A stretch of DNA of 64,000 bases from the sequence record NC_135728.1. One strand, 5' to 3'. Shown here piece after piece: positions 32,248 to 51,592 of the stretch (positions are counted from its first letter, which is position 1; every line of letters begins with the position of its first letter). The DNA comes from a phage. The translations under genes and the position numbers were made by a program. Below the pieces are notes generated by a model. It did no database searches. It was given only the letters and a program-made list of their open reading frames with translations, and was not told the DNA's origin.

Positions 32248-32337
32248 ATGATTGCATCAATATTAACGTTTATGGGCGGCGTGGCATTCGGATTCATTGT
32301 TTGCCTGTTTATAGTGATTATGTCTATGCGAGGCTGA
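32248..32337 (+). CDS. hydrophobic micro-protein, 29 aa
   Basis: MIASILTFMGGVAFGFIVCLFIVIMSMRG; packed between two genes. Confidence 0.35.
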   Translation: MIASILTFMGGVAFGFIVCLFIVIMSMRG

Positions 32338-32340
32338 ATT

Positions 32341-32637
32341 ATGAAACTTTTTGAGTGGTTTAAAAAGTTTAAATATAAAGCTGTAGCCATCGTGCCATGG
32401 TCCATTCAATGGGTGGACGATGAGGGATTACCAATTCCAGGTGATAAAGACACGGGATACTGGATCATGCTTGAAAACGGGTTTGGAAAGCGAAAATATA
32501 CGTGCACAAACTCTACTCGATCTGCACTTAATAGAGTGCCTGGTTACAAACTTATGGTTGTGTGGAAAATGTCAGGGGTGCCTCCAGCTAATGCTCAATT
32601 TCTTACTGACAATCCAACCACGGTGGAGGGAGATTGA
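32341..32637 (+). CDS. hypothetical protein
   Basis: Track ORF. Confidence 0.5.
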   Translation: MKLFEWFKKFKYKAVAIVPWSIQWVDDEGLPIPGDKDTGYWIMLENGFGKRKYTCTNSTRSALNRVPGYKLMVVWKMSGVPPANAQFLTDNPTTVEGD

Positions 32638-32639
32638 TA

Positions 32640-32921
32640 ATGAAAAAGATTAACAGTGGTGAAGTTGAGTTTAAACTTGTCGGGAAAGGCACTTACTGGG
32701 AAGTTCGTCAAAAGGTATATTTGTTCGGTCTTATTCCCTATTGGTCTAAATTCTACTGGGGAGCTAACGAGTTGGGAAGATACGCCACCAAATCAATGGC
32801 ACTTATTGGTATAGCAGAGTACATTGCAGCCAGAGATAGGGTTGGAGACACTTATTACTATACTGCGGACGATATTCGTAACAGTGTTTACGTCCCACAA
32901 CCACCTGATGGGGACCGTTGA
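32640..32921 (+). CDS. hypothetical protein
   Basis: ATG after GGAGGGAG. Confidence 0.5.
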   Translation: MKKINSGEVEFKLVGKGTYWEVRQKVYLFGLIPYWSKFYWGANELGRYATKSMALIGIAEYIAARDRVGDTYYYTADDIRNSVYVPQPPDGDR

Positions 32922-33145
32922 TGAAAGTTAAAGTTTTAGATTCAAGCTTCTATATTGGTCAGGAGCCTTTAGTAGGGAAAGTGTTTACTGCTGTCCCTAA
33001 CGAAGATTATCCTGACCTTTTAAAAATAAAAGGTGCAGATCTTATTGCCGCTGGTGCATCTCAGGACTGCTTTGACAGTCAGTGGACCTACAACTTTGCC
33101 CTAGGTGAGGATGTAGAGGTAGTGGAGGACGATCATGAAGGTTAA
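32921..33145 (+). CDS. small acidic protein, paralog family A (cassette 1)
   Basis: MKVKVLDSSFYIGQ...LIAAGA...VEVVED. Confidence 0.55.
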   Translation: MKVKVLDSSFYIGQEPLVGKVFTAVPNEDYPDLLKIKGADLIAAGASQDCFDSQWTYNFALGEDVEVVEDDHEG

Positions 33146-33389
33146 AATTCTTGATTCTAACGTCTACTTGGGACAATCCTTCCTGAAGGGAAAGGTCGTT
33201 CCTGCGGTATACTTTGAAGGGTTGCCGTGGGATGATCCTGTGCGGCAACATCACAGTTATGTAGGCCACAACGTGGTGTTTATCTTGGGATCAGACCTGA
33301 TCACCGCTGGTGCACCTGAATATTATTTCGGGGAAGAGTCCTATTATGCCTTTGGGGTAGGGTCAGATGCGGATATTGTAGAGCTGTGA
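33135..33389 (+). CDS. small acidic protein, paralog family A (cassette 1)
   Basis: MKVKILDSNVYLGQ...LITAGA... Confidence 0.55.
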   Translation: MKVKILDSNVYLGQSFLKGKVVPAVYFEGLPWDDPVRQHHSYVGHNVVFILGSDLITAGAPEYYFGEESYYAFGVGSDADIVEL

Positions 33390-33401
33390 TGGGTAACCGT
33401 T

Positions 33402-33800
33402 GTGAAAAATAAACTGTTTAAAGTTACAATGAAAATTCGCGGAGCTTGGAGCGTAAAGCAAGGGCGTATTCCGGAATTTGAGAAAGACTTCTACGTAGTC
33501 TCCACCTCGGAGGAGGCTGCATGCTGGCAGGCTGGCTATGCCTATGCAAGAACCTGGTACGAAGGATACCAGACCGGGGGATATGACGGAGAAATTATCA
33601 GCAGAGGTGTGGAAGAAATTAATGTGTTGACAAGTGAAAAAGTTTTTGTTATAGTGCATCCAGATTCCAGAGTGAAGCATTACTGGAACGCCAGAACAAA
33701 AACTTGGACACCGTTTGCAGATTCTGCTACGCCACTTTTAAACCAGAAAGCTCTTGACTCTGCCCCAAGTTATGGGATTGTTGAAGAAAAGCTAAACTGA
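33402..33800 (+). CDS. hypothetical protein, paralog family B (cassette 1)
   Basis: Shares LFKV..., HPDS..YW..TWTP.. with 35607-36002; GTG start. Confidence 0.55.
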   Translation: MKNKLFKVTMKIRGAWSVKQGRIPEFEKDFYVVSTSEEAACWQAGYAYARTWYEGYQTGGYDGEIISRGVEEINVLTSEKVFVIVHPDSRVKHYWNARTKTWTPFADSATPLLNQKALDSAPSYGIVEEKLN

Positions 33801-33817
33801 AACAGTGAGGTACTAAC

Positions 33818-34108
33818 ATGATGGATTTAGTTCTGGACACGGATAACACCGGAGAGTTTAAAAAGGATGGTGTAACAAGCGTTGACCAATCCTTCCCTGC
33901 CAAGATTGACTCAAAATGGACCTACAAGTTCGATGGAGAGATCTTCGCAAATGATGAGAAGGTTGTAGATGCTGCAGCCATTTTGAACGCTCTAGGGTAC
34001 GACCCTGTGAATTCTTTGATCAAGGATCCTGTTGAGTTTGCAGAGTATGTTCGAAAAATGGCAGATCTTGCTGTGGATATTTTAAAAACTATCGACGACA
34101 AGCTGTAA
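33818..34108 (+). CDS. hypothetical protein
   Basis: GTGAGGT RBS. Confidence 0.5.
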   Translation: MMDLVLDTDNTGEFKKDGVTSVDQSFPAKIDSKWTYKFDGEIFANDEKVVDAAAILNALGYDPVNSLIKDPVEFAEYVRKMADLAVDILKTIDDKL

Positions 34109-34114
34109 AAACTG

Positions 34115-34143
34115 TTGACACAACGCTTCAGATTTAGTATCAT
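34115..34143 (+). promoter_or_regulatory. sigma70-like promoter TTGACA-17-TATCAT
   Basis: Directly upstream of the HPF homolog. Confidence 0.5.
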
Positions 34144-34190
34144 TGTTTTCAAAGAGGGTTTGGTTCCCTCTTCTTTAAAAGGAACACGTT

Positions 34191-34508
34191 ATGCAAATTG
34201 AAATCACTGGCAACGTAGAAATCACTGAAGGTATGGTGTCTTTCATTTCCCACAAAATGTCTAAGCTGGAGCGTTTGCACCCATCTGCCAACTATGCACG
34301 TGTGAGTGTAAAAGTTGAAAATGATCACCAGGAAGTTATGGCGTTCATTTTTGACAATTCTGGAAAAGAAGTTATTGCCAAGGCTAAAGGCAGTGATGCT
34401 TACGAGGCAACTGACCGTATGGTAGATGTTGCAGCACGTCAGCTGGCTAAATGCGGTGGAAAGAAAGGTAAGGGGAAAGGCAAAGTAAAGATTGACTTTG
34501 GAGAATGA
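34191..34508 (+). CDS. hpf: ribosome hibernation promoting factor / RaiA-family homolog
   Basis: Colinear with E. coli HPF: MQIEITGNVEITEGM...KLE...VKVE...GSDAYEATD...ARQLAK, plus a basic KGKGKGK tail. Confidence 0.85.
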   Translation: MQIEITGNVEITEGMVSFISHKMSKLERLHPSANYARVSVKVENDHQEVMAFIFDNSGKEVIAKAKGSDAYEATDRMVDVAARQLAKCGGKKGKGKGKVKIDFGE

Positions 34509-34517
34509 GGTGCTACA

Positions 34518-34619
34518 ATGGGTGTGATTAAGAAATTAGTCCCAAATGTAGAGATTGCATGCTTTGAAATTATGTTTGCAATCGCAGTTGTAGTTAATGT
34601 GTTAGGTTACGGCTATTAA
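34518..34619 (+). CDS. hydrophobic micro-protein, 33 aa
   Basis: GAGGTG RBS; MGVIKKLVPNVEIACFEIMFAIAVVVNVLGYGY. Confidence 0.35.
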   Translation: MGVIKKLVPNVEIACFEIMFAIAVVVNVLGYGY

Positions 34620-34645
34620 TATCAAATAATTGAGGAGACCTCTAA

Positions 34646-34915
34646 ATGAAAATTAAATTATTCAAAACCGAGCTGGCAGACAAAAACTGTGGACTGGTTG
34701 AAGGCATGATTGTCGAAGCACAACCAGTTGACTATATGAAGGTGGTTCGTGATGCCCTGGGTGAAGGTTTTGATCTGATGGAGCCAGCTCTGCGAGAAGA
34801 TGTTATCGAGATGGCTAAAAAGCACACACCTGAAGGCATGGTGGTGTTTGTTGCACCGGGTAACGGAGAAGAGTTGATTGTAACTCCTGATGTGTATGAG
34901 ATTGTAGAGGAATAA
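34646..34915 (+). CDS. small acidic protein, paralog family A
   Basis: MKIKLFK... start, EIVEE end; GAGGAGA RBS. Confidence 0.5.
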   Translation: MKIKLFKTELADKNCGLVEGMIVEAQPVDYMKVVRDALGEGFDLMEPALREDVIEMAKKHTPEGMVVFVAPGNGEELIVTPDVYEIVEE

Positions 34916-35006
34916 TCCTGCTTGGATTAGCAGGCTTCCTCGATAAGGAAGGTTTGTAATTATTTGTGGGAAAGGAATCCCAATCTCTTACCAGAGGTGA
35001 TACTAT

Positions 35007-35270
35007 ATGATTGTTTATTTTAAAACTTCAGGTGGATACCCTGATTCTCAAAGCTTGATCGGAAAAACGTGCACAGCATACTCACCTCTTGATGAGGAGG
35101 TAGGCGATATTCTACGAAATATGTATCGGATTGATCCTCAAGAAGCTTTTGATCAAAATCTTGTATTTGTCAAGGGCTCAGACATGAAGTCTTTGGGAGC
35201 ATTCCCTGAAGCAGATGATGATGCCGTTTATTCGTTCATGACTCCTTTTGAAGCTATGGTTATTGGGTGA
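35007..35270 (+). CDS. small acidic protein, paralog family A (cassette 2)
   Basis: GAGGTGA RBS. Confidence 0.5.
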   Translation: MIVYFKTSGGYPDSQSLIGKTCTAYSPLDEEVGDILRNMYRIDPQEAFDQNLVFVKGSDMKSLGAFPEADDDAVYSFMTPFEAMVIG

Positions 35271-35275
35271 TAATA

Positions 35276-35607
35276 TGAAAGTACGCTTTATTGGTGAAAC
35301 AATTCCTGTGCATCTCCGGTCGCCTGAGGATTCTGCAGATCTTGCATCTCAAAAGGCGAGAGGCTATGATAAGAAAGTAATCTCAACCGATGTAGTGCTT
35401 GAGGCTACTAGTCTACCTGACCCCGCTGCATTCTTTAATCATTATGGATACTATTTCAGCAATCTGATGAATATCGGTGAGCTTGTGTTTATTAGTGGTG
35501 GAGAAATTGTTAGCAAGCTTGGCGGCGATCCGGATGTCTTTCATGAAACCTGTCCTTTTGCATTTGTGGTGGGTTCAGATGTGGAAGTTATTGAGGAGGT
35601 GCGGTAA
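35276..35607 (+). CDS. small acidic protein, paralog family A (cassette 2)
   Basis: MKVRFIG... start, VEVIEE end. Confidence 0.5.
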
Positions 35608-36002
35608 TGGTAAGCCTATACCGTGTTGAGTATAGCTCAGATACTGTATACAACGTAAGAAGCAAAGATCGCAGCGACAGAGTGCAAGAAATGTATGTTC
35701 TTGCCGACAGTCCGTTATCTGCAGCGTTCAAGGCAGGGGCTCTTGCATCTCGTTGGAAATTTGAAGGCGGATCTTTCTATGAAGAAACCCTTGAAGATTC
35801 TGTTGTTATTTCTTCTGTAGAGGTTTCAGATGACTACGAAGGGAAAAAGTTCGTAATGCGGCACCCACACAGTAACATTGCGTACTACTGGGATGTTCTG
35901 AACAACGAGTGGACCCCAGATCTTCAGAAGGCTACTGTGCTAACACCGTTTTTGGCAGATAAGTTCCCACCAGAAGGTAATTTATCCGCACTGTTTCAGT
36001 AA
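35607..36002 (+). CDS. hypothetical protein, paralog family B (cassette 2)
   Basis: LYRV..., HPHS..YW..EWTP.. shared with 33402-33800. Confidence 0.55.
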   Translation: MVSLYRVEYSSDTVYNVRSKDRSDRVQEMYVLADSPLSAAFKAGALASRWKFEGGSFYEETLEDSVVISSVEVSDDYEGKKFVMRHPHSNIAYYWDVLNNEWTPDLQKATVLTPFLADKFPPEGNLSALFQ

Positions 36003-36020
36003 TTTTCTTGCACACAGGTG

Positions 36021-36050
36021 TTGACAACACCAACCCTGTGTGAAATAATA
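36021..36050 (+). promoter_or_regulatory. sigma70-like promoter TTGACA-17-AATAAT
   Basis: Consensus -35, moderate -10. Confidence 0.35.
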
Positions 36051-36081
36051 CCTTCATCTTAACAAGACAGGAGACTGATTG

Positions 36082-36339
36082 ATGAAGATTAAATTGAAAA
36101 ACCTTGAAACGGCAGAGATTCAGGACGGTGTAGATTTCCGTTCTAAAGATGGTGACATCTTAGAGGTAAATCTTCCAACCTACGAGCTGATTAAAGGTTT
36201 TGGCAACGTTCAGGAAGAGGATATTCCAGAAATTCTTATGATGTTGATTCTTGACGGAACTGTGTTTGTAGGTGAAGGTGAGAACGCTATTGCAATCCCA
36301 GGCCATTTTTATGAAGTAGTTGACGAAGAGGTGCTGTAA
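36082..36339 (+). CDS. small acidic protein, paralog family A
   Basis: MKIKLKN... start, VVDEEVL end. Confidence 0.5.
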   Translation: MKIKLKNLETAEIQDGVDFRSKDGDILEVNLPTYELIKGFGNVQEEDIPEILMMLILDGTVFVGEGENAIAIPGHFYEVVDEEVL

Positions 36340-36690
36340 ATGAAAGTAGAAATTACTGGTTTTGATGTTAGTGTGGTTCCGGAAGATATTTTAGCTAACT
36401 TACCGGAAGGTTTTGGTAACGGTGTTGTGGTGGATGCTGTTCCTCCTACCAAAGACATTCTGCTGCAGTATGGTGTAGCAGAGGAAGATGTCGATAAAGT
36501 TCTTACAATGATGGCAATCGATCGTGTTGTCGTTGTTAAAGGTCTCGATAATTTTGAGAGTGATCCTCTGATTATTCGCGGAGATGACTACAAAATCATC
36601 GATAATGAAGGCCAAGAGTTCTATGAGCCTTGTGCAGAAGATATTCTTAACTTATTACTGGAAGCAGGCACCGAAGAGGAGGACGAATAA
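36340..36690 (+). CDS. small acidic protein
   Basis: MKVEITG... start, EEEDE end. Confidence 0.5.
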   Translation: MKVEITGFDVSVVPEDILANLPEGFGNGVVVDAVPPTKDILLQYGVAEEDVDKVLTMMAIDRVVVVKGLDNFESDPLIIRGDDYKIIDNEGQEFYEPCAEDILNLLLEAGTEEEDE

Positions 36691-37019: not shown

Positions 37020-37306
37020 TGAAAGATCTGGTTAAGATTAAGATTAAAGATACCAATGGAGAACTCAGCCATTTTGGAATTAATGATGGTGACGAGCTGA
37101 TCGCACACCTGCCTACCAAGGAGGTTGTAAGCAAAGCAGTTGCCGGAGAAGAAGCTGCAATGCAGGCTGCAGGTGTGGATGAAAACTATGTAGCTATGTG
37201 CATGTGCCGAGATCAGGTTGTTCTGTATAAAGCGTATCGACCAAACGGAGCCACGGAGTGGCTTGTATTCCGACCCGAAGGATATGAAATCTTAGAGGCA
37301 CTGTGA
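37019..37306 (+). CDS. small acidic protein
   Basis: TAATG overlap; MKDLVKIKIKD... Confidence 0.5.
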   Translation: MKDLVKIKIKDTNGELSHFGINDGDELIAHLPTKEVVSKAVAGEEAAMQAAGVDENYVAMCMCRDQVVLYKAYRPNGATEWLVFRPEGYEILEAL

Positions 37307-37395
37307 TAAATCTTGCCAAGGTTGCAACGGCACTGTTAATTATTTGCTGGTCAGTAACCTTAACACTGTGTCTTGTATTTCAGTGAGGTGCTTGT

Positions 37396-37659
37396 ATGAA
37401 CATCCTGATGTGGGTTATAGCAGTGGCGTTTGTTGCATGTTTTTGCTGCTGGGTTGCGGTGAGGATTTCTGTAGCTACCCTTCGGAAGTTGGGGTTCTCA
37501 GAATGGGATATTAATATCCTTTCTTTTCGCAATGAAACAATCTCAGCCGCCCTGCTTTGTAAGAAATTCAAGTGGGAACCTTGTGAGGTCATGAACTATC
37601 TAAGAACAGGTGATATTCCTGAAAGATTTAAAAAAGTTCTTGACGGCAAGGATAAATGA
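37396..37659 (+). CDS. small membrane protein (N-terminal TM helix)
   Basis: MNILMWVIAVAFVACFCCWVAV; GAGGTG RBS. Confidence 0.5.
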   Translation: MNILMWVIAVAFVACFCCWVAVRISVATLRKLGFSEWDINILSFRNETISAALLCKKFKWEPCEVMNYLRTGDIPERFKKVLDGKDK

Positions 37660-37687
37660 CAGTATAGTGACTAACAAGAGGTGAGGA

Positions 37688-37828
37688 GTGACTGATTTTA
37701 CTGAAGCTTTAATGATGGCCTTGTCTGTTTTAGCGCTATCGGTGTGTTTTGGGGCGTTATTCACATCTCTGGTTAAAGTTTTACATACAGTATTATTACC
37801 CAAGGAGCGCAGTAATGACGAAGATTGA
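37688..37828 (+). CDS. small membrane protein, 46 aa
   Basis: GTG after AAGAGGTGAGGA; TM-like ALSVLALSVCFGALFTSLV; overlaps next gene start. Confidence 0.4.
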   Translation: MTDFTEALMMALSVLALSVCFGALFTSLVKVLHTVLLPKERSNDED

Positions 37829-38400: not shown

Positions 38401-38406
38401 TATGGC

Positions 38407-39300: not shown

Positions 39301-39329
39301 TTGACACATTGCCGCTCCAGTGATAGTAT
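39301..39329 (+). promoter_or_regulatory. sigma70-like promoter TTGACA-17-TAGTAT
   Basis: Consensus -35, good -10. Confidence 0.5.
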
Positions 39330-39354: not shown

Positions 39355-39660
39355 GTGCACAATGAAAACATTGTCCGAAGTTTTGGTGGTGATCCTGATG
39401 ATCATTACGTCCATAGCGGCTGTTGCCGGAATACTCACGGGTGGAACATGATAAACACACATGCATCTGAAGAGACATCCAAAGGAGTGACTATATGTCC
39501 CTTGACTGAGCCAGTGCAAGAGGAAAACTTCGATTCTGAAGATTCTCCATCTTTGCTCCAGGTAGATCCTGAGGCTGATGACCTAACGTGGGAAGACATC
39601 GTAGATATCTGGTTCTCTATTATGCCTGAGCACGAAGAGTTCAGGGGTGGTAGACTATGA
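39355..39660 (+). CDS. hypothetical acidic protein (start uncertain: GTG 39355 or ATG 39448)
   Basis: GGAGAA RBS before GTG; alternative ATG 39448 overlaps the stop of the micro-ORF below. Confidence 0.4.
   Translation: MHNENIVRSFGGDPDDHYVHSGCCRNTHGWNMINTHASEETSKGVTICPLTEPVQEENFDSEDSPSLLQVDPEADDLTWEDIVDIWFSIMPEHEEFRGGRL
39362..39451 (+). CDS. alternative hydrophobic micro-ORF, 29 aa
   Basis: GGAGTG RBS; MKTLSEVLVVILMIITSIAAVAGILTGGT; mutually exclusive with the GTG-39355 reading. Confidence 0.3.
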   Translation: MKTLSEVLVVILMIITSIAAVAGILTGGT

Positions 39661-45019: not shown

Positions 45020-45124
45020 TCACCCGATACCGTTGGAAGACAAGATCATATTAGACATGGTTGCAATCAGGCCAATACCCAGGGCAATAATCAAGATCAC
45101 TGCATCGATTAATTTCTGTTTCAT
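45020..45124 (-). CDS. hydrophobic micro-protein, 34 aa
   Basis: MKQKLIDAVILIIALGIGLIATMSNMILSSNGIG; fits between flanking genes. Confidence 0.35.
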   Translation of the reverse strand: MKQKLIDAVILIIALGIGLIATMSNMILSSNGIG

Positions 45125-46028: not shown

Positions 46029-46082
46029 GATGATTTACCTCTCTTTATTTTCATAATTGGGGCCTTTTCGGCCCCGCCAGGT

Positions 46083-46500: not shown

Positions 46501-46531
46501 AAAACAATAAAGGCTATGCGATTGCATAGCC
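46501..46531 (-). terminator. rho-independent terminator
   Basis: On minus strand GGCTATGC-AATC-GCATAGCC followed by TTTATTGTTTT. Confidence 0.5.
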
Positions 46532-46569
46532 TGCTAGTGTTTAGGTCGCTGTAGGCCCTGCCTGGGGCC

Positions 46570-46920: not shown

Positions 46921-46937
46921 AAAATCACCTGTTGAAA

Positions 46938-47246
46938 TTAGTTTGAGAAAACATCGTTCACAATAGCGATCACAATGCCGCTCACCTTGTCACGGTCAAC
47001 AATGCACAAATCACCATAGATCATGTGGTAGTCTGGATGATCTTTCACAGAATAGTCAATAAGTGTTTTCTTGTCATCCAGCTTCGTAACTTCCATTCTC
47101 ATAACGATATGAGAATCATCAAAGGCATTATTCCGAAAAGTCATAGCCTGACCGCCAGGGCACCCAGTGATCTCCACTTCCACACCATCTACGATCTGAC
47201 CATCAAAGAAATAAAGATTATTAGCCTGGATAAACATGTCTATCAC
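46938..47246 (-). CDS. hypothetical protein
   Basis: AAGGAG RBS. Confidence 0.5.
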   Translation of the reverse strand: MIDMFIQANNLYFFDGQIVDGVEVEITGCPGGQAMTFRNNAFDDSHIVMRMEVTKLDDKKTLIDYSVKDHPDYHMIYGDLCIVDRDKVSGIVIAIVNDVFSN

Positions 47247-47281
47247 TCCTTGTTAACTGCGTGGTATTTTAACAGGGTTTA

Positions 47282-47311
47282 AATTTACTTTATTGATGGC
47301 CCTGGAGTCAA
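47282..47311 (-). promoter_or_regulatory. conserved promoter-hairpin element, copy 1 (TTGACT-18-TAAATT)
   Basis: One of three near-identical 48-bp elements; hairpin GATGGCC/GGCCATC spans the -35 and spacer. Confidence 0.5.
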
Positions 47312-47330
47312 GGCCATCTAAAAATAAATT

Positions 47331-47531
47331 TTACAGGCCTACAATCTCTTTGATTCGTTTAACCGCTGCCTCAGCGCCTTGGGGGTAAAAATTATGGTAA
47401 CCAATCACGCGAGTGATACTAATCGCCGTTTGATGATCTTCATAGTCGCCCTTGAAGATTTCTTGACCGTCAATCAGCACGGCAATTTTTTCTTCTTTTT
47501 TGAAGTTAATAACGCGGATATTGTTGCTCAT
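47331..47531 (-). CDS. hypothetical protein
   Basis: AAGGAGA RBS. Confidence 0.5.
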   Translation of the reverse strand: MSNNIRVINFKKEEKIAVLIDGQEIFKGDYEDHQTAISITRVIGYHNFYPQGAEAAVKRIKEIVGL

Positions 47532-47632
47532 TTTGTTTCTCCTTTCTGGTTTTTGTGGTGGTGGGGATTAGCTCCCCCCGTTGATTGTTATTATCCACAT
47601 TCCGGACCGGATTGCAACACCCCGGAAGAAAA

Positions 47633-47647
47633 TTTTTTTTTTTTTTT
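47633..47647. repeat. T15 homopolymer tract (A15 on the coding strand)
   Basis: Fifteen consecutive T; flanked by DnaA-box-like TTATCCACA at about 47589 and hairpin GGCCCCC-ATGATC-GGGGGCC. Confidence 0.8.
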
Positions 47648-47678
47648 AAAGATAGGCCCCCATGATCGGGGGCCGTTA

Positions 47679-47798
47679 TCAGTTACTTACAGCGATAAAA
47701 TACATCCCTACGCCTAACAATATTTCAAGGGCGATGATCTCAAGCCATACCATAGCACGGCGCGCCTTATCGGTGCGGGGCTTATCCTTGGTTGTCAT
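47679..47798 (-). CDS. small membrane protein, 39 aa
   Basis: GGAGGGAAGGGGGAG RBS; MTTKDKPRTDKARRAMVWLEIIALEILLGVGMYFIAVSN. Confidence 0.35.
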   Translation of the reverse strand: MTTKDKPRTDKARRAMVWLEIIALEILLGVGMYFIAVSN

Positions 47799-47818
47799 CG
47801 TCTCCCCCTTCCCTCCTG

Positions 47819-48040
47819 TTAGCAGTTACGTGGTTTGCAATGGCCCCCAGGAGTATTATCACCACGCACATTGCAAGAAAAATTATCTCTGTCGTTGTTC
47901 GATCCATTGTTATAAAATTCCTCAAGATCAGGCCTGAAAATAAAGCGTTCGTTATTGAATCCGTCACGCCAGGCGGCTGGCTTCAAATCTTCACTAAAGG
48001 GATTAATTAACGTGGCATTATTTAAACGGTTGGCCCACAT
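47819..48040 (-). CDS. hypothetical protein (alternative to track ORF 47782-47967)
   Basis: ATG after AGAGGAA (MWANRL...); overlaps a competing frame. Confidence 0.35.
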   Translation of the reverse strand: MWANRLNNATLINPFSEDLKPAAWRDGFNNERFIFRPDLEEFYNNGSNNDRDNFSCNVRGDNTPGGHCKPRNC

Positions 48041-48389
48041 ATTTTCTATTCCTCTCAAATAGGCGATCCGCCTCAGTTAAACATATCTCATGGGCTTGAT
48101 CTCTGGTTTTAGCCTCATCAAAAACCTGTTGTGCCAGGCTGCAGCGTAGGGAGACTGGAAGATCGCTATAATAGGCGTTGACAAACGTTTGAGCGTCGTA
48201 CAGGTCTGAAAATACTTTACCCTTTCTATTATTCCCCTTGTCAACAATTGCAAGGATAACCAATACAATAGTTGCGACTACCCCCAGGAAAATAGATATA
48301 ATAAACCATAAAAAGGCGGATCTTCCCATCTTGCCAGCGATCCAGGCGTTAAACAAGGCAACCAATACAGCCAAAATAATAAATTCCAT
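48018..48389 (-). CDS. membrane protein (two TM helices)
   Basis: Start MEFIILAVLVALF after AGAGGT; second TM FLWFIISIFLGVVATIVLVILAIV. Confidence 0.5.
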   Translation of the reverse strand: MEFIILAVLVALFNAWIAGKMGRSAFLWFIISIFLGVVATIVLVILAIVDKGNNRKGKVFSDLYDAQTFVNAYYSDLPVSLRCSLAQQVFDEAKTRDQAHEICLTEADRLFERNRKYVGQPFK

Positions 48390-48453
48390 TCTATGTACCT
48401 CTTTTACAGTTCTGATTAACAATAAGGCGGCAAATATGCCGCCTGTTACCTGA

Positions 48454-48834
48454 TTAAAAATTATCGCCGTAAATCTTTCCGCTTTCTACCCATACCACCA
48501 CGCGAGGCATACTATCCCACACGTCTTGTTTTAGATTGAGCGCGTGCAATTCTTCGGTGGTGCTCATACCGGGCACGGGCTGATTGTATACTGCAAAACG
48601 ACCGCCTGCATAATCATAGGCCAGGGTTAAATCACACTGGATCATCTTTTTGATCATGGCATTAAGCATGGCGTTAGCCGCATATTGATCACGTTTTAAA
48701 GGCAACTCTTTGATTAGTTTGCGATAGTTTTCGATATGGTCGCACACTGTTTCACGTGGAAGATCTTTCATATCCTCGCGAAAGGTAACCAGGTTAAACA
48801 TAACGGTGTCAATGGCTTTAGTGGTGCTTTTCAT
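48454..48834 (-). CDS. hypothetical protein
   Basis: Leader CCACACAAAACAAAGAGGAAAAC. Confidence 0.5.
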   Translation of the reverse strand: MKSTTKAIDTVMFNLVTFREDMKDLPRETVCDHIENYRKLIKELPLKRDQYAANAMLNAMIKKMIQCDLTLAYDYAGGRFAVYNQPVPGMSTTEELHALNLKQDVWDSMPRVVVWVESGKIYGDNF

Positions 48835-48922
48835 GATGTTTTCCTCTTTGTTTTGTGTGGGGCAAACGTCTTGCCCCTTGAGTTTTAATATAGCAGGTTT
48901 TTAGGTTATTGCAACACTTTAT

Positions 48923-49546
48923 TTATGAAAAAGTCATCTCGCCATATTCATCCACATCAAACCGCCAATCATTGGCCTCGATAAGGCCGATCAGGTTTTC
49001 GGTAGTAAATTGTTCAAGATAAGCTTGCTCCAGGTCTACGTAAACCTTGCGGGATAGCTCCCGTACCGTCTCGGTGATCAGCTCTTCCAGCTCTTCAACT
49101 TTGTCCTCTTGCTTGGTGGTCAGGTCTAGCCAATTAGTATCGATGCACCCTCCTATTGTGTTTTCGTGGTGATAATGGCTAAACGGGATACGTTCAACAC
49201 TGGCTGATAGTTCGCCATCGTGCATTGTGCCGAACAAGTGACGAATTGATCGGAACTTGGTCAGGGCCTTTACTTTACGCAAGAATTTTTCTAAATCCAC
49301 GTTTTCCGCACTGATTGACGCGCCGTCACCCTGGCACCAAAAGCCTGACCAATGTACTTCGGTATCTTCAAGGCCATACTCTGGAAAAACATATTCTTTA
49401 TAGTATTCAATTACACTTTCTGCAAAAAAGTTATCCCCGCTGTGTTCTTCTCTTTCGCGTACCATTTCAATGGCTTTTTCTTTTTGTTCGTCGGTCAGCA
49501 CGTCGAAAGATAAATTGTAACCTGTGGTAATGTTAACGGTGGTCAT
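48923..49546 (-). CDS. hypothetical acidic protein (207 aa)
   Basis: CAGGAGAAAATAT leader; no confident motif. Confidence 0.5.
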   Translation of the reverse strand: MTTVNITTGYNLSFDVLTDEQKEKAIEMVREREEHSGDNFFAESVIEYYKEYVFPEYGLEDTEVHWSGFWCQGDGASISAENVDLEKFLRKVKALTKFRSIRHLFGTMHDGELSASVERIPFSHYHHENTIGGCIDTNWLDLTTKQEDKVEELEELITETVRELSRKVYVDLEQAYLEQFTTENLIGLIEANDWRFDVDEYGEMTFS

Positions 49547-49621
49547 GATATTTTCTCCTGTTTTCTTTGTTAGTGGCGGGAAGTTTTCCCGCCTATGTTT
49601 TTTAATTATACTTATTGAGAT

Positions 49622-49882
49622 TTACTTGTCAACACTATTTTTTAAATTATTGTGGCGCAAAATGTTTAAAATCTTCTCAACGTCATCAACACGGCGGCAA
49701 TTTTTAAACGCTACCAATTGCCCCATGATTTTAATCACTGGGCGGCCTTGCCAGTGCCCCTGAAGAAAGCGCGCCTTGACTTTATCGGTGGAACTATCAC
49801 GCCACCAAATAGCCTTGTTGTTGCAGTAGTAAAAATTATTCAGGATAACATCAACTTTATCAAAATTTTTTAATTTACGCAT
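49622..49882 (-). CDS. hypothetical protein
   Basis: AAAGGAGTAAACGCC leader. Confidence 0.5.
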   Translation of the reverse strand: MRKLKNFDKVDVILNNFYYCNNKAIWWRDSSTDKVKARFLQGHWQGRPVIKIMGQLVAFKNCRRVDDVEKILNILRHNNLKNSVDK

Positions 49883-49914
49883 GGCGTTTACTCCTTTCTC
49901 TCTTTGATGTGGTT

Positions 49915-49942
49915 AGTATAGCTAACCTGTTGACGATGTCAA
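49915..49942 (-). promoter_or_regulatory. sigma70-like promoter TTGACA-16-TATACT
   Basis: Read on minus strand upstream of gene 49622-49882. Confidence 0.5.
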
Positions 49943-50063
49943 TGATATTTTTAACGCCACAAAACGGCCCTGGGCGATGTTTTCAGGTTAAAGGGGGCGA
50001 TTGCATAGGTGGGGGGCCTTTTTGGCACTTATAGGGCCAACCAGGGGCGCTATTCGTAGGGTA

Positions 50064-50093
50064 GAAATAAAAAGCCCCGCACGATGGCGGGGC
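50064..50093 (-). terminator. rho-independent terminator
   Basis: On minus strand GCCCCGC-CATCGT-GCGGGGC followed by TTTTTATTTC. Confidence 0.65.
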
Positions 50094-50101
50094 GTTGGTT
50101 G

Positions 50102-50299
50102 TTAGTTGCCTTTGTGGCGGTATCGTTCCGCCTGCCGTTCACGTTCCAAAAGGAGGCCCGGCAATTTACGATCATAATGATTTCGCCAGATCTTCCCAAA
50201 TCTTTTTGGCTTATTCAGTTTATTGTTACGCTGGCGGCGTTCCGGCAGCTCTTCGGAATCATGAGATCGCTTTACAATTTTCTCAAAATTAATCTTCAT
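50102..50299 (-). CDS. small basic (Arg/Lys-rich) protein
   Basis: Start MKINFEK after GGGGGGAATAT; overlaps upstream gene end. Confidence 0.4.
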   Translation of the reverse strand: MKINFEKIVKRSHDSEELPERRQRNNKLNKPKRFGKIWRNHYDRKLPGLLLERERQAERYRHKGN

Positions 50300-50642
50300 A
50301 TATTCCCCCCTTGCTAACTTCAATATTGGCCTGAATAGCCCGGATACGGCGCTTTATAACTTCCTGATCTGTGTGATCGTATCCCCAAAAGTCCACAATT
50401 TTTGCGCCCCCTGCCTCCAAGCGGTATAGTGTTTCCTGCATCTTGTAAGCCGGGATCGGTCGCGGTGTTACTTGGTCACCTTCTTTATTTTTATACTTTA
50501 TAATATAATCTTCGTTATCGTTGAATGTCCAAAATGGATATTCTGCAAGGGCGGTACTTCCTCTTTCCTTTTTATCCTGGATCTTGTTTACAATTAAAGC
50601 CGTAGCAATAGCGCCAATAATAAAACTAGCCCCGCTGATCAT
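50289..50642 (-). CDS. membrane-anchored protein (N-terminal TM helix)
   Basis: MISGASFIIGAIATALIV; AAAGGAGAAAGTA leader. Confidence 0.5.
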   Translation of the reverse strand: MISGASFIIGAIATALIVNKIQDKKERGSTALAEYPFWTFNDNEDYIIKYKNKEGDQVTPRPIPAYKMQETLYRLEAGGAKIVDFWGYDHTDQEVIKRRIRAIQANIEVSKGGIYED

Positions 50643-50716
50643 GTACTTTCTCCTTTCAAGGTGTTAATAAATTATCTTTATAGATGGCCCTGCAGCCAGG
50701 ACCACCGAAAAAATAA

Positions 50717-50962
50717 CTATTTCACAATGCCTACAAAACAGATCCCGCCTTCACCTATATAAGCAATATCGGTCACTTTGTAGTTGGTCAAGATCTGTTT
50801 ATTTAGATCATTAATAAAATCGGTCATTGCGTTGGTGTAGTTGTCTTCCGTATCTAAGGCATAATCCCAGGTGTAAACCTTTTTACGTCCGAAGCCTTTT
50901 ACCATGATACGGGCGCTTTTGGTGTTGGTAGGGGCATAATATTTGGTGATTAGTGCTGCCAT
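50717..50962 (-). CDS. hypothetical protein
   Basis: ATAGGAG RBS. Confidence 0.5.
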   Translation of the reverse strand: MAALITKYYAPTNTKSARIMVKGFGRKKVYTWDYALDTEDNYTNAMTDFINDLNKQILTNYKVTDIAYIGEGGICFVGIVK

Positions 50963-51004
50963 GGTTTTAACTCCTATGCATTAGTTCAGTGTTAACAGTA
51001 TAAA

Positions 51005-51034
51005 GTTTACTTTATTGATGGCCCTGGTGTCAAG
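51005..51034 (-). promoter_or_regulatory. conserved promoter-hairpin element, copy 2 (TTGACA-18-TAAACT)
   Basis: Near-identical to copies 1 and 3. Confidence 0.5.
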
Positions 51035-51051
51035 GCCATCTAAAAATAAAC

Positions 51052-51393
51052 TTACTCGTTTTCTTCCAGCTCCGCAAGCTCTTCTTTTGCTTCTTCCAAC
51101 TCTGTCTGCAATTCCTGATATTCTTCATCGTCCTCAATATCCAGGCTGTCGATGTAGTCGCTAAATCCGCAGCGGTAAGCGATAGGATCTAGCTCCTTGA
51201 GGATACGCGACGGAAGAAAAGAAATGTTTCCGATCATAATTTCGCCGTAGATCTCGTCCAACCATTCATCATAGTTTTCGTCGTACTTGTCCTCGTCGAT
51301 TTCAAAGTTATCGATCTTATTCTCAAGGTCTGCGATCTGTTTTTTCAGGGCAGCGATCTGAATAGCTTTTTCTGCGGCGGTCATAGTAGTCAT
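51052..51393 (-). CDS. acidic coiled-coil protein
   Basis: AAAGGAGAAAAACACC leader. Confidence 0.5.
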   Translation of the reverse strand: MTTMTAAEKAIQIAALKKQIADLENKIDNFEIDEDKYDENYDEWLDEIYGEIMIGNISFLPSRILKELDPIAYRCGFSDYIDSLDIEDDEEYQELQTELEEAKEELAELEENE

Positions 51394-51472
51394 GGTGTTT
51401 TTCTCCTTTTGTGTGTTCTGGGAAGTTTTCCCGTTTATGTGTTTAGTATACTGATCTAAGTTAGCTTGTCAA

Positions 51473-51592
51473 TTAAAAGTTTAAGAAAAATTTTGCGACA
51501 CTGTTGGCGCTACCCATCAACATTTGCGCCAGGATGTAACCAATGATGCAAACGATAATAGTTACCTTTGTGTGCTGGCGTGTAGTACTCAT
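51473..51592 (-). CDS. small membrane protein, 39 aa
   Basis: AGGGGG RBS; MSTTRQHTKVTIIVCIIGYILAQMLMGSANSVAKFFLNF. Confidence 0.35.
   Translation of the reverse strand: MSTTRQHTKVTIIVCIIGYILAQMLMGSANSVAKFFLNF

What the first reader, a model, noticed from the sequence alone, without database searches (positions are those of the whole stretch)
32248..51592. Several unannotated hydrophobic micro-ORFs with good ribosome-binding sites
Short ORFs below the track threshold encode single transmembrane-like helices and fit exactly into gaps or overlap flanking genes in the pattern used throughout this genome: 32248-32337, 34518-34619, 37688-37828, 39362-39451, 45020-45124, 47679-47798, 51473-51592. 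Such micro-proteins in phages are candidate holin/antiholin-like factors, membrane-stress modulators or type I toxin-like peptides.
Basis: partly seen in the sequence, partly recalled or inferred. Interest (0 to 1): 0.4.

Follow-up and report, generated by a model that had tools for sequence, protein, structure and literature searches.

The report
Tiny membrane-protein genes of rV5-like phage
Seven very short genes in this rV5-like E. coli phage each encode one membrane-spanning helix and are conserved as proteins, but they are already catalogued in related phages as membrane proteins of unknown function, so the finding is real but not new.

Summary
The window is an rV5-like E. coli myophage (genus Vequintavirus; closest record searched is Murica, 97% identity). 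All seven micro-ORFs exist exactly where stated. Each has a 19-residue stretch with Kyte-Doolittle hydropathy of at least 2.08, and each sits in the compact gene layout on the coding strand. Such ORFs are about 8-fold more frequent here than in simulated sequence.

They are real genes. The frames stay open in every relative that carries them. Substitutions are biased towards synonymous changes only in the proposed frame (113 of 227 against 66 expected, p=5e-11). dN/dS is 0.12-0.35 for six of the seven; m2 is conserved but statistically unresolved.

They are not unannotated. Five are listed as "membrane protein, 1 TMD" in the 2013 rV5 paper, six match PHROG families over their full length, and all seven exact peptides are in public protein databases.

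No test supported membership of the holin or type I toxin families. There is no homology, the lysin gene is far away, and the ORFs sit in operons with sigma70-type promoters.

The most likely role is as early-expressed single-pass inner-membrane micro-proteins that modulate membrane proteins. That role is inferred, not shown.

New side observations: two unannotated candidates (37303-37386 and 47782-47907), and an m1 homolog heading arrays of TM micro-ORFs in E. coli prophages.

The parts
32248..32337 (+). m1: 29-aa micro-gene, MIASILTFMGGVAFGFIVCLFIVIMSMRG (essentially only a TM helix)
   Evidence: The ORF is intact in every relative that carries it and tblastn finds it in 90 phage records, mostly unannotated. 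It is cleanly absent from Murica, HMD-6 and the IMG/VR genome. Homologs at 76-90% nt identity are intact in E. coli prophages. Including those copies gives 18 syn: 16 non (p=0.0015) and dN/dS 0.21, with no signal in the shifted frames.
34518..34619 (+). m2: 33-aa micro-gene directly after the HPF/RaiA gene (= rV5 ORF145, phrog_15151)
   Evidence: It is present in 117 of 117 Vequintavirus records and matches its PHROG over the full length. It is listed as '1 TMD' in rV5 Table S3. The frame is intact in all 11 genomes examined, and the other two frames carry 3-5 stops. Selection statistics are unresolved (6 syn: 8 non, p=0.23; dN/dS 0.42). The TM-coding 69 nt is almost invariant (1/69 differences against about 20% in the flanks), and no RNA structure explains this (z = -0.13).
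37688..37828 (+). m3: 46-aa micro-gene (GTG start here, ATG in most relatives; = rV5 ORF156, phrog_16755). It has an acidic N-terminus, a TM helix and a charged C-terminal tail, and overlaps the next gene by 14 nt.
   Evidence: 18 syn: 14 non (p=0.007) and dN/dS 0.29. All 11 database clusters are exactly 46 aa. AlphaFold2 predicts a helix over residues 2-36. A sigma70-like promoter lies at 37640-37668, just upstream.
39362..39451 (+). m4: 29-aa micro-gene (= Murica147, phrog_34195), overlapping the next gene by ATGA
   Evidence: 21 syn: 17 non (p=0.002) and dN/dS 0.12. The alternative long frame (39355-39660, annotated as the 101-aa rV5 ORF162) shows no constraint over this stretch (9 syn of 38). 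The divergent IMG/VR genome lacks the upstream ATG, which supports the start at 39362. It is present in 114 of 117 records.
45020..45124 (-). m5: 34-aa micro-gene (= Murica158, phrog_14631; rV5 ORF173 is a longer call). It has a TM helix plus a conserved C-terminal motif NMILSS(N/H)GIG.
   Evidence: Two alleles differ at 47% of residues but have the same length and the same hydrophobic character. dN/dS is 0.25-0.30 within and between alleles, with between-allele pS 0.65. Allele 2 is also intact, and unannotated, in Phapecoctavirus phages. Only one 50%-identity cluster exists among 1.84 billion representative proteins.
47679..47798 (-). m6: 39-aa micro-gene (= rV5 ORF181, phrog_13629). It has a basic N-terminal tail and an invariant TM helix containing two Glu residues, and is the last ORF of its operon.
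   Evidence: 19 syn: 15 non (p=0.0003) and dN/dS 0.21. One allele carries an in-frame 3-nt insertion. All 15 database clusters are 39-40 aa. AlphaFold2 predicts a helix over residues 8-38.
51473..51592 (-). m7: 39-aa micro-gene (= rV5 ORF193, phrog_16391). It has a basic N-terminus, a TM helix and a conserved amphipathic C-terminal tail.
   Evidence: 22 syn: 24 non (p=0.007) and dN/dS 0.20. It is present in 111 of 112 matching records but absent from ECP26. It is flanked by two sigma70-like promoters.
37640..37668 (+). Sigma70-like promoter (TTGACG-17-TATAGT) immediately upstream of m3
   Evidence: Consensus scan only.
39301..39329 (+). Sigma70-like promoter (TTGACA-17-TAGTAT, extended -10) immediately upstream of m4, preceded by a terminator-like hairpin at 39112-39131
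   Evidence: Consensus scan only.
51623..51657 (-). Repeated promoter-plus-palindrome element (GCCTTGACACCAGGGCCATCAATAAAGTAAACT) directly upstream of m7. Other copies are at 51002-51036 and 47280-47314.
51445..51472 (-). Strong sigma70-like promoter (TTGACA-16-TATACT, 11/12) starting 1 nt after the m7 stop codon (= rV5 P192)
47655..47674 (-). Terminator-like GC-rich hairpin 4 nt after the m6 stop codon
   Evidence: Annotated as a terminator in Murica.
   Evidence: 18 syn: 3 non and dN/dS 0.03.
37303..37386 (+). x2: candidate 27-aa TM micro-ORF (GTG here, ATG in 10 relatives) overlapping the upstream stop codon by (A/G)TGA. It is not annotated in any record examined.
   Evidence: It is intact in 11 of 11 genomes, with 8 syn: 8 non (p=0.05) and dN/dS 0.38, which is not resolved from the +1 frame. 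The peptide is not in the 15-billion-protein collection and matches no PHROG.
47782..47907 (-). x3: candidate 41-aa TM micro-ORF hidden out of frame under the 3' tail of the annotated 73/81-aa gene (Murica167 / rV5 ORF182). It overlaps the m6 start by 17 nt.
   Evidence: It is intact in 11 of 11 genomes. In the overlap, the x3 frame shows 15 syn: 15 non while the annotated frame shows 6: 23 (Fisher p=0.03). The tail of the annotated protein varies in sequence and in length. The peptide is not in public collections or PHROGs.

Best explanation
The seven ORFs are genuine, separately evolving micro-genes of a Vequintavirus (rV5-like) phage. Each encodes a 29-46-aa peptide consisting of little more than one transmembrane helix, with or without a short polar tail.

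Shown:
- The reading frames, lengths and hydrophobic character are maintained by purifying selection across the genus. For m1 and m5 this extends across different phage lineages.
- The ORFs lie in the block of about 88 small ORFs, inside operons with sigma70-type promoters.
- Some are near-universal in the genus (m2, m4, m7). Others are present or absent (m1, m7), replaced (m4) or occur as alternative alleles (m5, m6).

Inferred:
- They are translated early or in the middle of infection by host machinery and insert into the inner membrane. By the positive-inside rule, m2, m4, m5, m6 and m7 would be N-in, while m3 and m1 would be N-out.
- They act as small modulators through helix-helix contacts with host or phage membrane proteins. 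Candidate roles are host takeover, superinfection exclusion or counter-defence, by analogy with bacterial small membrane regulators.
- The invariant intramembrane Glu pairs (m2, m6) and the conserved extramembrane tails (m5, m7) are the likely specificity determinants.

The specific targets are unknown.
For: Identity of the genome.

ORF integrity and in-frame indels.

Synonymous excess only in the proposed frames: 113 of 227 events against 66 expected (p=5e-11). The shifted frames give 48 of 196 and 35 of 212, with no excess.

Per-ORF dN/dS: m1 0.21, m3 0.29, m4 0.12, m5 0.35, m6 0.21, m7 0.20.

m1 re-tested with prophage copies: p=0.0015.

m5: dN/dS is 0.25-0.30 within and between alleles, and the allele found in another subfamily is intact.

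Negative controls: the antisense hydrophobic ORFs x4 and x5 fail the same tests.

Enrichment over chance: 12 against 1.5 +/- 1.2.

Single helix and TM character: hydropathy, AlphaFold2, and TMHMM/Phobius '1 TMD' in rV5 Table S3.

Operon context.

Literature context: hydrophobic microproteins under purifying selection are the dominant class of intergenic smORF products in Enterobacteriaceae and are thought to act through protein-protein interactions (PMC11188072).
Against: - There is no expression evidence of any kind. I found no Ribo-seq, RNA-seq or infected-cell proteomics for this genus. The rV5 mass spectrometry was done on virions only.
- m2 is not resolved by synonymous/nonsynonymous statistics (p=0.23). 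Its near-invariance at synonymous sites could reflect a nucleotide-level constraint instead.
- The SD of m5 is weak in this window.
- No partner protein is identified, and no homolog with a known function exists. The mechanistic part therefore rests on analogy only.
Confidence: 0.55

Rival explanations
1. Lysis-timing factors. Some of the peptides would be holins, antiholins or other lysis regulators that accumulate in the inner membrane and control when the endolysin reaches the cell wall.
For: - They are single-TM peptides, and some have charged tails (m3, x3).
- m6 and x3 lie in the same operon as a 123-aa membrane protein that the BASEL annotation calls 'putative holin'.
- In E. coli prophages the m1 homolog lies three genes downstream of a holin-lysozyme-Rz cassette.
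Against: - There is no homology to any holin family.
- At 29-46 aa with one TMD, they are below typical holin size and TMD number (rV5 paper's description; own knowledge).
- The rV5 lysin gp89 is tens of kb away, and the paper's holin candidate is a different 78-aa, 2-TMD protein.
- The 'putative holin' label on the 123-aa neighbour matches no holin family: it falls in an unknown-function PHROG and has only sub-threshold Pfam hits.
- The slot between lysis and terminase genes in prophages is a general site for accessory (moron) genes (own knowledge).
- Sigma70-type promoters suggest expression that is not restricted to late infection.
Confidence: 0.07
2. Toxin-like membrane-depolarising peptides. 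Like type I toxins (TisB, Hok, Ldr, Ibs, ShoB, ZorO, TimP), they would insert into the inner membrane and dissipate the proton-motive force. A lytic phage could use this for host shut-off or to block DNA injection by competing phages.
For: - Their size, single hydrophobic helix and polar tail resemble type I toxins (own knowledge of those families).
- x3 gives a weak, sub-threshold hit to TimP (E=0.04, 14 bits against a cut-off of 45).
- Toxic early products are a recognised theme for this phage group (PMC13250531).
Against: - No significant match to any toxin family was found.
- The defining regulatory architecture is missing. There is no stand-alone locus, no structured leader and no antisense RNA. 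The antisense promoter-like matches are at chance level, 63 found against 42.8 +/- 6.7 expected.
- The ORFs are translationally coupled members of polycistronic operons.
- About ten different depolarising peptides in one genome would be redundant.
- The conserved extramembrane motifs (m5, m7) and the invariant intramembrane Glu residues (m6) suggest specific partners rather than generic membrane damage.
Confidence: 0.15
3. Cis-acting leader or coupling ORFs. The act of translating them, not the peptide, would be what matters. They might set translation of the overlapping downstream gene (m3, m4) or tether the nascent polycistronic mRNA to the membrane.
For: - m3, m4 and m7 are the first ORFs after sigma70-like promoters.
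- m3 and m4 overlap the start of the next gene by 14 nt and 4 nt.
Against: - Purifying selection acts on the amino-acid sequence (dN/dS 0.12-0.29 for m3, m4 and m7), and the replacements that do occur are conservative hydrophobic swaps.
- A pure coupling ORF would need only an open frame.
- m1 and m5 move between genomes as SD-plus-ORF cassettes with different downstream genes.
Confidence: 0.08
4. Chance ORFs or over-annotation: hydrophobic frames thrown up by base composition in intergenic spacers, with no product.
For: - Open frames of 30 codons are common in 42% GC sequence.
- PHANOTATE-style annotations over-call small ORFs.
- m2 and x2 are statistically unresolved.
Against: - The count is 8-fold above simulations.
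- The synonymous excess is frame-specific, at p=5e-11.
- Length is conserved across very divergent alleles and across phage subfamilies.
- Antisense control ORFs fail the same tests.
Confidence: 0.03

Closest known systems
rV5 ORF145, ORF156, ORF173, ORF181 and ORF193 ('membrane protein, 1 TMD'; Kropinski et al. 2013, PMC3606486 Table S3) and the matching PHROG families 15151, 16755, 14631, 13629, 16391 and 34195
   Same: They are the same genes. They occupy orthologous positions, match the profiles over the full length (E 1e-21 to 1e-36) and are identical or nearly identical peptides.
   Different: Nothing substantive differs. m1 and m4 are missing from the 2013 rV5 annotation: m1 falls in a gap and m4 is hidden under the over-extended ORF162. 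Both are annotated in later genomes (Murica, BASEL phages).
Bacterial small inner-membrane regulators such as AcrZ, MgrB, MgtS, MgtR, KdpF and CydX (own knowledge), and the hydrophobic intergenic microproteins of Enterobacteriaceae (PMC11188072)
   Same: They are 25-50 aa with a single TM helix and are under purifying selection. They are presumed to work by binding larger membrane proteins.
   Different: There is no sequence relationship. These are phage-encoded and sit in host-takeover operons. No partner is known.
Type I toxins (TisB, Hok, Ldr, Ibs, ShoB, ZorO, TimP)
   Same: Small hydrophobic single-helix peptides of similar length.
   Different: No family match, no antisense-RNA locus architecture, and the ORFs are embedded in operons with normal SDs.
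Phage holins, antiholins and pinholins
   Same: Phage-encoded small inner-membrane proteins.
   Different: These peptides are shorter and have one TMD. They show no homology, are not next to the lysin, and are not in an obviously late transcription unit.
T4 early membrane proteins involved in superinfection exclusion (Imm, Sp; PMC7677548 for Sp)
   Same: Early-expressed small envelope proteins of a large virulent myovirus. This is a plausible functional analogy.
   Different: Imm and Sp are 83-97 aa and unrelated in sequence. No exclusion phenotype is known for the rV5 micro-proteins.
Catalogues of small phage genes (Fremin et al. 2022, Cell Rep 39:110984; cited from the reference list of PMC11188072, paper not held)
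   Same: They describe a general class of conserved phage genes below 50 codons, many with predicted TM segments (own knowledge of that paper).
   Different: That work is a catalogue and does not characterise these families.

Membership tests
Vequintavirus 1-TMD micro-protein families (rV5 ORF145/156/173/181/193; PHROGs 15151, 16755, 34195, 14631, 13629, 16391) | Full-length sequence match to the family profile | tested here: met
   m2-m7 match over their whole length at E = 3e-21 to 4e-36. m1 has no PHROG family, but its exact peptide is in NCBI (BASEL phages).
Vequintavirus 1-TMD micro-protein families (rV5 ORF145/156/173/181/193; PHROGs 15151, 16755, 34195, 14631, 13629, 16391) | Same syntenic position in related genomes | tested here: met
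   Annotated CDSs occupy the orthologous positions in Murica, rV5, WalterGehring, MiataMamis and A51.2.
Vequintavirus 1-TMD micro-protein families (rV5 ORF145/156/173/181/193; PHROGs 15151, 16755, 34195, 14631, 13629, 16391) | One predicted transmembrane helix | tested here: met
   The best 19-residue KD hydropathy window is 2.08-2.95 in all seven. AlphaFold2 gives a single helix for m3 and m6. TMHMM/Phobius give 1 TMD in rV5 Table S3.
Holins / antiholins | Homology to a described holin family | tested here: not met
   No holin model was hit in Pfam, NCBIfam or PHROGs, even at permissive E-values.
Holins / antiholins | Gene linked to the endolysin or spanin genes, or in a late lysis cassette | tested here: not met
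   The rV5 lysin gp89 is at 71.5 kb, whereas the micro-ORFs lie at 96-115 kb of rV5. The ORFs sit in operons with sigma70-type promoters. The one exception in context is the m1 homolog in prophages, which lies 3 genes after a lysis cassette.
Holins / antiholins | Typical architecture: usually 2-3 TMDs (or one TMD in a larger protein) plus a charged, usually basic, C-terminal tail | tested here: not met
   These have a single TMD and 29-46 aa. Only m3 has a charged C-terminal tail, and it is net acidic. The definition follows the rV5 paper and my own knowledge.
Holins / antiholins | Triggered membrane permeabilisation that releases the endolysin | not testable with these tools
   This needs lysis assays or holin complementation.
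Type I toxin peptides | Small hydrophobic membrane peptide | tested here: met
Type I toxin peptides | Homology to a known toxin family (Hok, Ldr, Ibs, TisB, ShoB, ZorO, DinQ, TimP) | tested here: not met
   The NCBIfam scan at E<=10 gave nothing for m1-m7. Only x3 gave a sub-threshold TimP hit (14 bits against a cut-off of 45).
Type I toxin peptides | Stand-alone locus with a cis- or trans-encoded antisense RNA antitoxin controlling translation | tested here: not met
   The ORFs are coupled members of polycistronic operons with canonical SDs. The only antisense promoter-like sites are 9/12 matches, at the chance level for the region. Whether an antisense RNA really exists needs RNA-seq.
Type I toxin peptides | Toxicity or membrane depolarisation on expression | not testable with these tools
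   This needs expression assays.
Small membrane-protein regulators (AcrZ/MgrB-like mode of action) | Physical binding to, and modulation of, a larger membrane protein | not testable with these tools
   No multimer prediction or interaction data are available here. The invariant intramembrane Glu pairs in m2 and m6 and the conserved tails of m5 and m7 are only suggestive.

The most novel reading that the evidence does not exclude
Phages of E. coli may carry a pool of exchangeable gene cassettes of about 100 bp, each an SD plus one TM helix. These cassettes would move between virulent myoviruses of different subfamilies and temperate prophages, and can be stacked into arrays of 7-9 back-to-back micro-genes. 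In this reading the Vequintavirus micro-ORFs, including the two unannotated ones (x2, x3), are members of a largely unannotated, modular 'TM-helix toolkit', in which each helix targets a particular host membrane protein or membrane-bound defence or entry component. Shown here are the exchange of m1 and m5 across lineages and the conserved prophage arrays. That these are one functional class with specific targets is speculation.
Probability: 0.2. Interest if true: 0.6.

Novelty: already known. Interest (0 to 1): 0.22.

Why it matters
As stated, the finding rediscovers genes that are already annotated and that were published as 1-TMD membrane proteins of unknown function, so it adds little on its own.

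Its value is as a well-validated example set. Six to seven peptides of 29-46 aa show clean comparative evidence of coding. They sit in a phage genus that is easy to manipulate (the BASEL collection and the O157 typing phages), and no function is known for any of them.

If they modulate host membrane proteins, exclusion or defence, they would be compact tools and a window on how large virulent phages remodel the inner membrane.

The side observations point to systematic under-annotation of this gene class. These are the unannotated overlapping frame x3, the candidate x2, the mis-extended rV5 ORF162, and the prophage arrays of micro-ORFs that RefSeq leaves blank.

Tried and rejected
- tblastn of m5 against the phage collection returned nothing, probably because the low-complexity filter masked the hydrophobic peptide. 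DNA searches replaced it.
- The search for homologous proteins refuses queries under 40 aa, so only m3 and the 40-aa allele of m6 could be searched. Both families proved restricted to the genus.
- An exhaustive HMMER search for m5 found a single cluster.
- IMG/VR anchor searches gave only one useful divergent genome.
- The phi92 region that matches DNA near m5 is not syntenic and holds no m5.
- Pfam and NCBIfam gave no significant hit for any peptide, and Pfam gave none for most neighbouring genes.
- Rfam found nothing in 32000-52000, and no tRNA was found in the window.
- An RNA-structure explanation for the nucleotide-level conservation of m2 was rejected (z = -0.13).
- Literature searches found no transcriptomic, ribosome-profiling or infected-cell proteomic data for Vequintavirus. 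The Fremin et al. 2022 paper is not held.
- The antisense hydrophobic ORFs at 45403-45543(+) and 38914-39036(-) were considered and rejected as spurious.

Full report
**What the window is.** Megablast of 32000-52000 finds 309 phage records. The best is Escherichia phage Murica (Vequintavirus) at 97.1% identity over 99% of the query, followed by many rV5-like phages at 90-96%. The finding's range lies in the part of the genome that the rV5 paper describes as containing '88 mainly small ORFs', split by an ORF-free block (PMC3606486). The + strand cluster runs to about 40 kb of the window and the - strand cluster starts at about 42.5 kb.

**Check of the observation.** All seven ORFs are present at the stated coordinates; m1-m4 are on the + strand and m5-m7 on the - strand.

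| ORF | Coordinates | Strand | Length | Peptide |
|---|---|---|---|---|
| m1 | 32248-32337 | + | 29 aa | MIASILTFMGGVAFGFIVCLFIVIMSMRG |
| m2 | 34518-34619 | + | 33 aa | MGVIKKLVPNVEIACFEIMFAIAVVVNVLGYGY |
| m3 | 37688-37828 | + | 46 aa | (V/M)TDFTEALMMALSVLALSVCFGALFTSLVKVLHTVLLPKERSNDED |
| m4 | 39362-39451 | + | 29 aa | MKTLSEVLVVILMIITSIAAVAGILTGGT |
| m5 | 45020-45124 | - | 34 aa | MKQKLIDAVILIIALGIGLIATMSNMILSSNGIG |
| m6 | 47679-47798 | - | 39 aa | MTTKDKPRTDKARRAMVWLEIIALEILLGVGMYFIAVSN |
| m7 | 51473-51592 | - | 39 aa | MSTTRQHTKVTIIVCIIGYILAQMLMGSANSVAKFFLNF |

- Each has a 19-residue window of Kyte-Doolittle hydropathy 2.08-2.95.
- AlphaFold2 predicts one long helix for m3 (residues 2-36, pLDDT 84) and for m6 (residues 8-38, pLDDT 86).
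- SD motifs are good for m2, m3, m4 and m6 and acceptable for m7. The m1 SD is spaced 10 nt from the ATG. The m5 SD in this window is only purine-rich.
- The packing claim holds.
- Chance test: ORFs of 25-50 aa with an ATG or GTG start, an SD-like motif and hydropathy of at least 2.0 number 12 in the window, against 1.5 +/- 1.2 (maximum 5) in 100 second-order Markov simulations.

**'Unannotated' is not correct in public terms.**
- Murica annotates m2, m4, m5 and m6.
- The rV5 RefSeq record annotates m2, m3, m5 (a longer call), m6 and m7.
- WalterGehring and MiataMamis annotate all seven.
- A51.2 labels m2, m5, m6 and m7 'putative membrane protein'.
- Table S3 of the 2013 rV5 paper lists ORF145 (33 aa), ORF156 (46 aa), ORF173 (46 aa), ORF181 (39 aa) and ORF193 (39 aa) as 'membrane protein, 1 TMD'.
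- m2-m7 match PHROG families of unknown function over their full length.
- All seven exact peptides are present in public protein collections.
- m1 is the least annotated. tblastn finds it intact in 90 phage records, most with no feature there.

**Are they real genes?** I aligned the orthologous segments from eight GenBank Vequintavirus genomes and the IMG/VR contigs, which include one more divergent 137-kb genome.
- Every frame is open wherever the segment exists. m6 has an in-frame 3-nt insertion allele. m3 varies only between ATG and GTG at its start.
- I classified unique substitution events against a neutral expectation. The proposed frames give 113 synonymous events of 227 against 66 expected (p=5e-11). 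The +1 and +2 frames give 48 of 196 and 35 of 212, with no excess.
- Per-ORF p-values: m3 0.007, m4 0.002, m5 0.014, m6 0.0003, m7 0.007, m1 0.066, m2 0.23.
- Pairwise dN/dS: m1 0.21, m2 0.42, m3 0.29, m4 0.12, m5 0.35, m6 0.21, m7 0.20. The shifted frames are near or above 1 except for m2.
- Two antisense hydrophobic ORFs picked up by the same scan serve as negative controls and fail, with broken frames and no synonymous excess.

**Extra divergence for m1 and m5.**
- The m1 cassette (SD plus ORF, window 32230-32343) has homologs at 76-90% nt identity in 10 of 5,426 complete E. coli chromosomes.
- In three of these that I fetched, the ORF is intact at 29 aa and its replacements are conservative hydrophobic swaps. 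Homology begins at the SD and ends at the stop codon.
- Including those copies gives 18 syn: 16 non (p=0.0015).
- m5 exists as two alleles that differ at 47% of residues but keep their length, their TM character and an invariant C-terminal motif NMILSS(N/H)GIG.
- The second m5 allele is also present, intact and unannotated, in Phapecoctavirus phages of another subfamily, next to different downstream genes.
- m5 dN/dS is 0.25-0.30 within and between alleles, with between-allele pS of 0.65.

**m2 and m4.**
- m2 is present in 117 of 117 Vequintavirus records, and its frame is the only open one.
- Substitutions in m2 are too few and cluster in codons 2-10. The TM-coding 69 nt differs at 1 of 69 positions in the divergent genome, against about 20% in the flanks.
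- A stable RNA structure does not explain this (z = -0.13).
- Coding is the best reading for m2, but it is the weakest of the seven.
- For m4, the competing annotation is rV5 ORF162, a 101-aa protein starting at the equivalent of 39355. That frame shows no constraint over the micro-ORF stretch (9 of 38 events synonymous), whereas the micro-ORF frame does (21 of 39).
- The divergent genome lacks the alternative upstream start.
- The model of a micro-ORF followed by a 70-aa gene is therefore the right one.

**Distribution.**
- The families are restricted to this phage group. m3 has 11 clusters, all 46 aa. m6 has 15 clusters of 39-40 aa on contigs of about 137 kb. m5 has one 50%-identity cluster among 1.84 billion representatives.
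- Within about 117 genus records, m2 is in 117, m4 in 114, m7 in 111 and m1 in 90.
- m1 is cleanly deleted in Murica and HMD-6, m7 is absent from ECP26 and m4 is replaced in B9-1.

**Context.**
- m3, m4 and m7 are each the first ORF after a sigma70-like promoter (37640-37668; 39301-39329; 51654-51625).
- The m7 promoter belongs to a 35-nt promoter-plus-palindrome element that occurs three times on the - strand.
- m7 is followed immediately by a second strong promoter (51472-51445), which is rV5 P192.
- m6 is the last ORF before a GC-rich hairpin (47674-47655).
- m2 follows the HPF/RaiA gene.

**What they are not.**
- No peptide matches any Pfam or NCBIfam family, even at permissive thresholds. 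That includes the holin and type I toxin models.
- The rV5 lysin (gp89) is far away, and the paper's holin candidate is a different 78-aa, 2-TMD protein upstream of the finding.
- The 'putative holin' label that BASEL places on the 123-aa membrane protein upstream of m6 matches no holin family: it falls in an unknown-function PHROG and has only sub-threshold Pfam hits.
- The type I toxin locus architecture is absent. The ORFs are coupled operon members, and antisense promoter-like matches are at the chance level.

**Most likely mechanism (inference).** I think these are early- or middle-expressed single-pass inner-membrane micro-proteins.
- By the positive-inside rule, m2, m4, m5, m6 and m7 would be N-in (basic N-terminal flanks). 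m3 and m1 would be N-out.
- The conserved features point to specific helix-helix or tail contacts rather than generic membrane damage. These features are two invariant Glu residues inside the TM helix of m6 and two in m2, the invariant periplasm-facing tails of m5 and m7, and the variable cytoplasmic tail of m6.
- The analogy is with bacterial small membrane regulators (own knowledge) and with the hydrophobic microproteins under purifying selection described for Enterobacteriaceae (PMC11188072).
- Plausible biological roles are host takeover, superinfection exclusion and counter-defence. None has been tested, and no expression data exist for the genus in the library searched.

**Side findings.**
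- 30408-30527 (x1) is another TM micro-gene of this kind (rV5 ORF131), with 18 syn: 3 non.
- 37303-37386 (x2, 27 aa) overlaps the upstream stop by (A/G)TGA and is intact in 11 of 11 genomes. It is absent from every annotation, from PHROGs and from the 15-billion-protein collection. Its statistics are borderline (8 syn: 8 non, p=0.05).
- 47782-47907(-) (x3, 41 aa) lies out of frame under the 3' tail of the annotated 73/81-aa gene. In the overlap, the x3 frame shows 15 syn: 15 non against 6: 23 for the annotated frame (Fisher p=0.03). The annotated tail varies in sequence and in stop position.
- In E. coli prophages the m1 homolog heads a back-to-back array of 7-9 conserved TM micro-ORFs of 20-31 aa, between the lysis cassette and the terminase genes. 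The array occurs in 35 of 5,426 genomes and is almost entirely unannotated.

**Verdict.** They are already annotated and published as 1-TMD membrane proteins of unknown function. The holin and type I toxin labels are not supported. Interest is low for the finding as stated. The exchange of micro-gene cassettes across lineages and the prophage arrays are the only parts that go beyond what is known.

Noticed in passing
window 47782-47907 (- strand): x3 is a conserved 41-aa TM ORF (MDRTTTEIIFLAMCVVIILLGAIANHVTANRREGGDDDNQG) lying out of frame under the 3' tail of the annotated 73/81-aa gene, and it overlaps the m6 start by 17 nt. Its frame, not the annotated one, carries the synonymous bias (15:15 against 6:23, Fisher p=0.03). 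It is not in any annotation, PHROG or public protein collection that I checked.
   Followed up: partly
window 37303-37386 (+ strand): x2 is a 27-aa TM ORF (MINLAKVATALLIICWSVTLTLCLVFQ) filling the 90-nt gap between two genes, with an (A/G)TGA overlap on the upstream stop codon. It is intact in 11 of 11 genomes (GTG only in this window) and is unannotated everywhere I looked. The selection test is borderline (p=0.05).
   Followed up: partly
It has the strongest coding signal of all (18 syn: 3 non, dN/dS 0.03). The rV5 'putative holin' ORF129 (78 aa, 2 TMD) lies about 115 nt upstream of it.
   Followed up: yes
L021 4015-4886; L022 4015-4660; L023 4015-4760 (E. coli chromosomes NZ_CP012379, NZ_CP053296, NZ_CP169309): In E. 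coli prophages the m1 homolog is the first of 7-9 back-to-back, conserved single-TM micro-ORFs of 20-31 aa with the pattern M-[DEK]-x-x-[DE]-hydrophobic. They lie between the holin-lysozyme-Rz cassette and the terminase genes. The array occurs in 35 of 5,426 complete genomes, about 10 of which have the m1-like member, and RefSeq annotates almost none of it.
   Followed up: partly
L024 552-656, L025 552-656, L026 543-647 (Phapecoctavirus phiWec188, phiWec181, 536P1): The divergent allele of m5 (MLEKIFTV..ANMILSSHGIG, 34 aa, same SD) is intact but unannotated in phages of a different subfamily (Stephanstirmvirinae), next to different downstream genes. This looks like horizontal exchange of a gene cassette of about 130 bp.
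   Followed up: yes
window 39355-39660 (+ strand); rV5 NC_011041 103372-103677: The rV5 RefSeq gene gp157/ORF162 (101 aa) appears over-extended at its 5' end. The first ~30 codons show no constraint in that frame and are better explained by the 29-aa m4 gene followed by a 70-aa gene starting at 39448.
   Followed up: yes
window ~40000-42500: This is an ORF-poor block of about 2.5 kb between the converging + and - strand gene clusters, called 'non-coding' in the rV5 paper. It has no tRNA and no Rfam family, but it holds several strong sigma70-like promoter matches and hairpins. Its function is unknown.
   Followed up: partly
window 51623-51657, 51002-51036, 47280-47314 (- strand): A 35-nt element is repeated three times (GCCTTGACACCAGGGCCATCAATAAAGTAAACT). 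It combines a TTGACA-N18-TAAACT promoter with a GGCC..GGCC palindrome across the -35 hexamer, which could be an operator for a shared regulator.
   Followed up: no
window 34551-34619: The TM-coding part of m2 is almost invariant at the nucleotide level, synonymous sites included, even in a genome whose flanks differ by about 20%. No stable RNA fold explains this. The cause could be recent recombination or an unrecognised constraint.
   Followed up: partly
window 47679-47798 and 34518-34619: m6 and m2 each carry two Glu residues inside the predicted TM helix (m6 E20/E25, invariant in all alleles; m2 E12/E17). This is unusual for a lone TM helix and suggests pairing with a partner helix or self-assembly.
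   Followed up: no
window 37688, 30408, 37303: Three micro-ORFs (m3, x1, x2) start with GTG in this window but with ATG in most or all relatives.
   Followed up: no
GenBank records MG0656xx (e.g. MG065644, MG065659, MG065662): About two dozen records named 'Campylobacter phage', with host given as C. jejuni, are 94-96% identical to E. coli rV5-like phages across this region. This looks like mislabelling or contamination of those submissions.
   Followed up: no
rV5 NC_011041 108489-108623 (ORF170); window ~44400-44700: rV5 and WalterGehring carry a further 44-aa, 1-TMD micro-gene (ORF170) that is absent from this window and from Murica, where a single 291-nt gene occupies the position. This is another present-or-absent TM micro-gene.
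   Followed up: no
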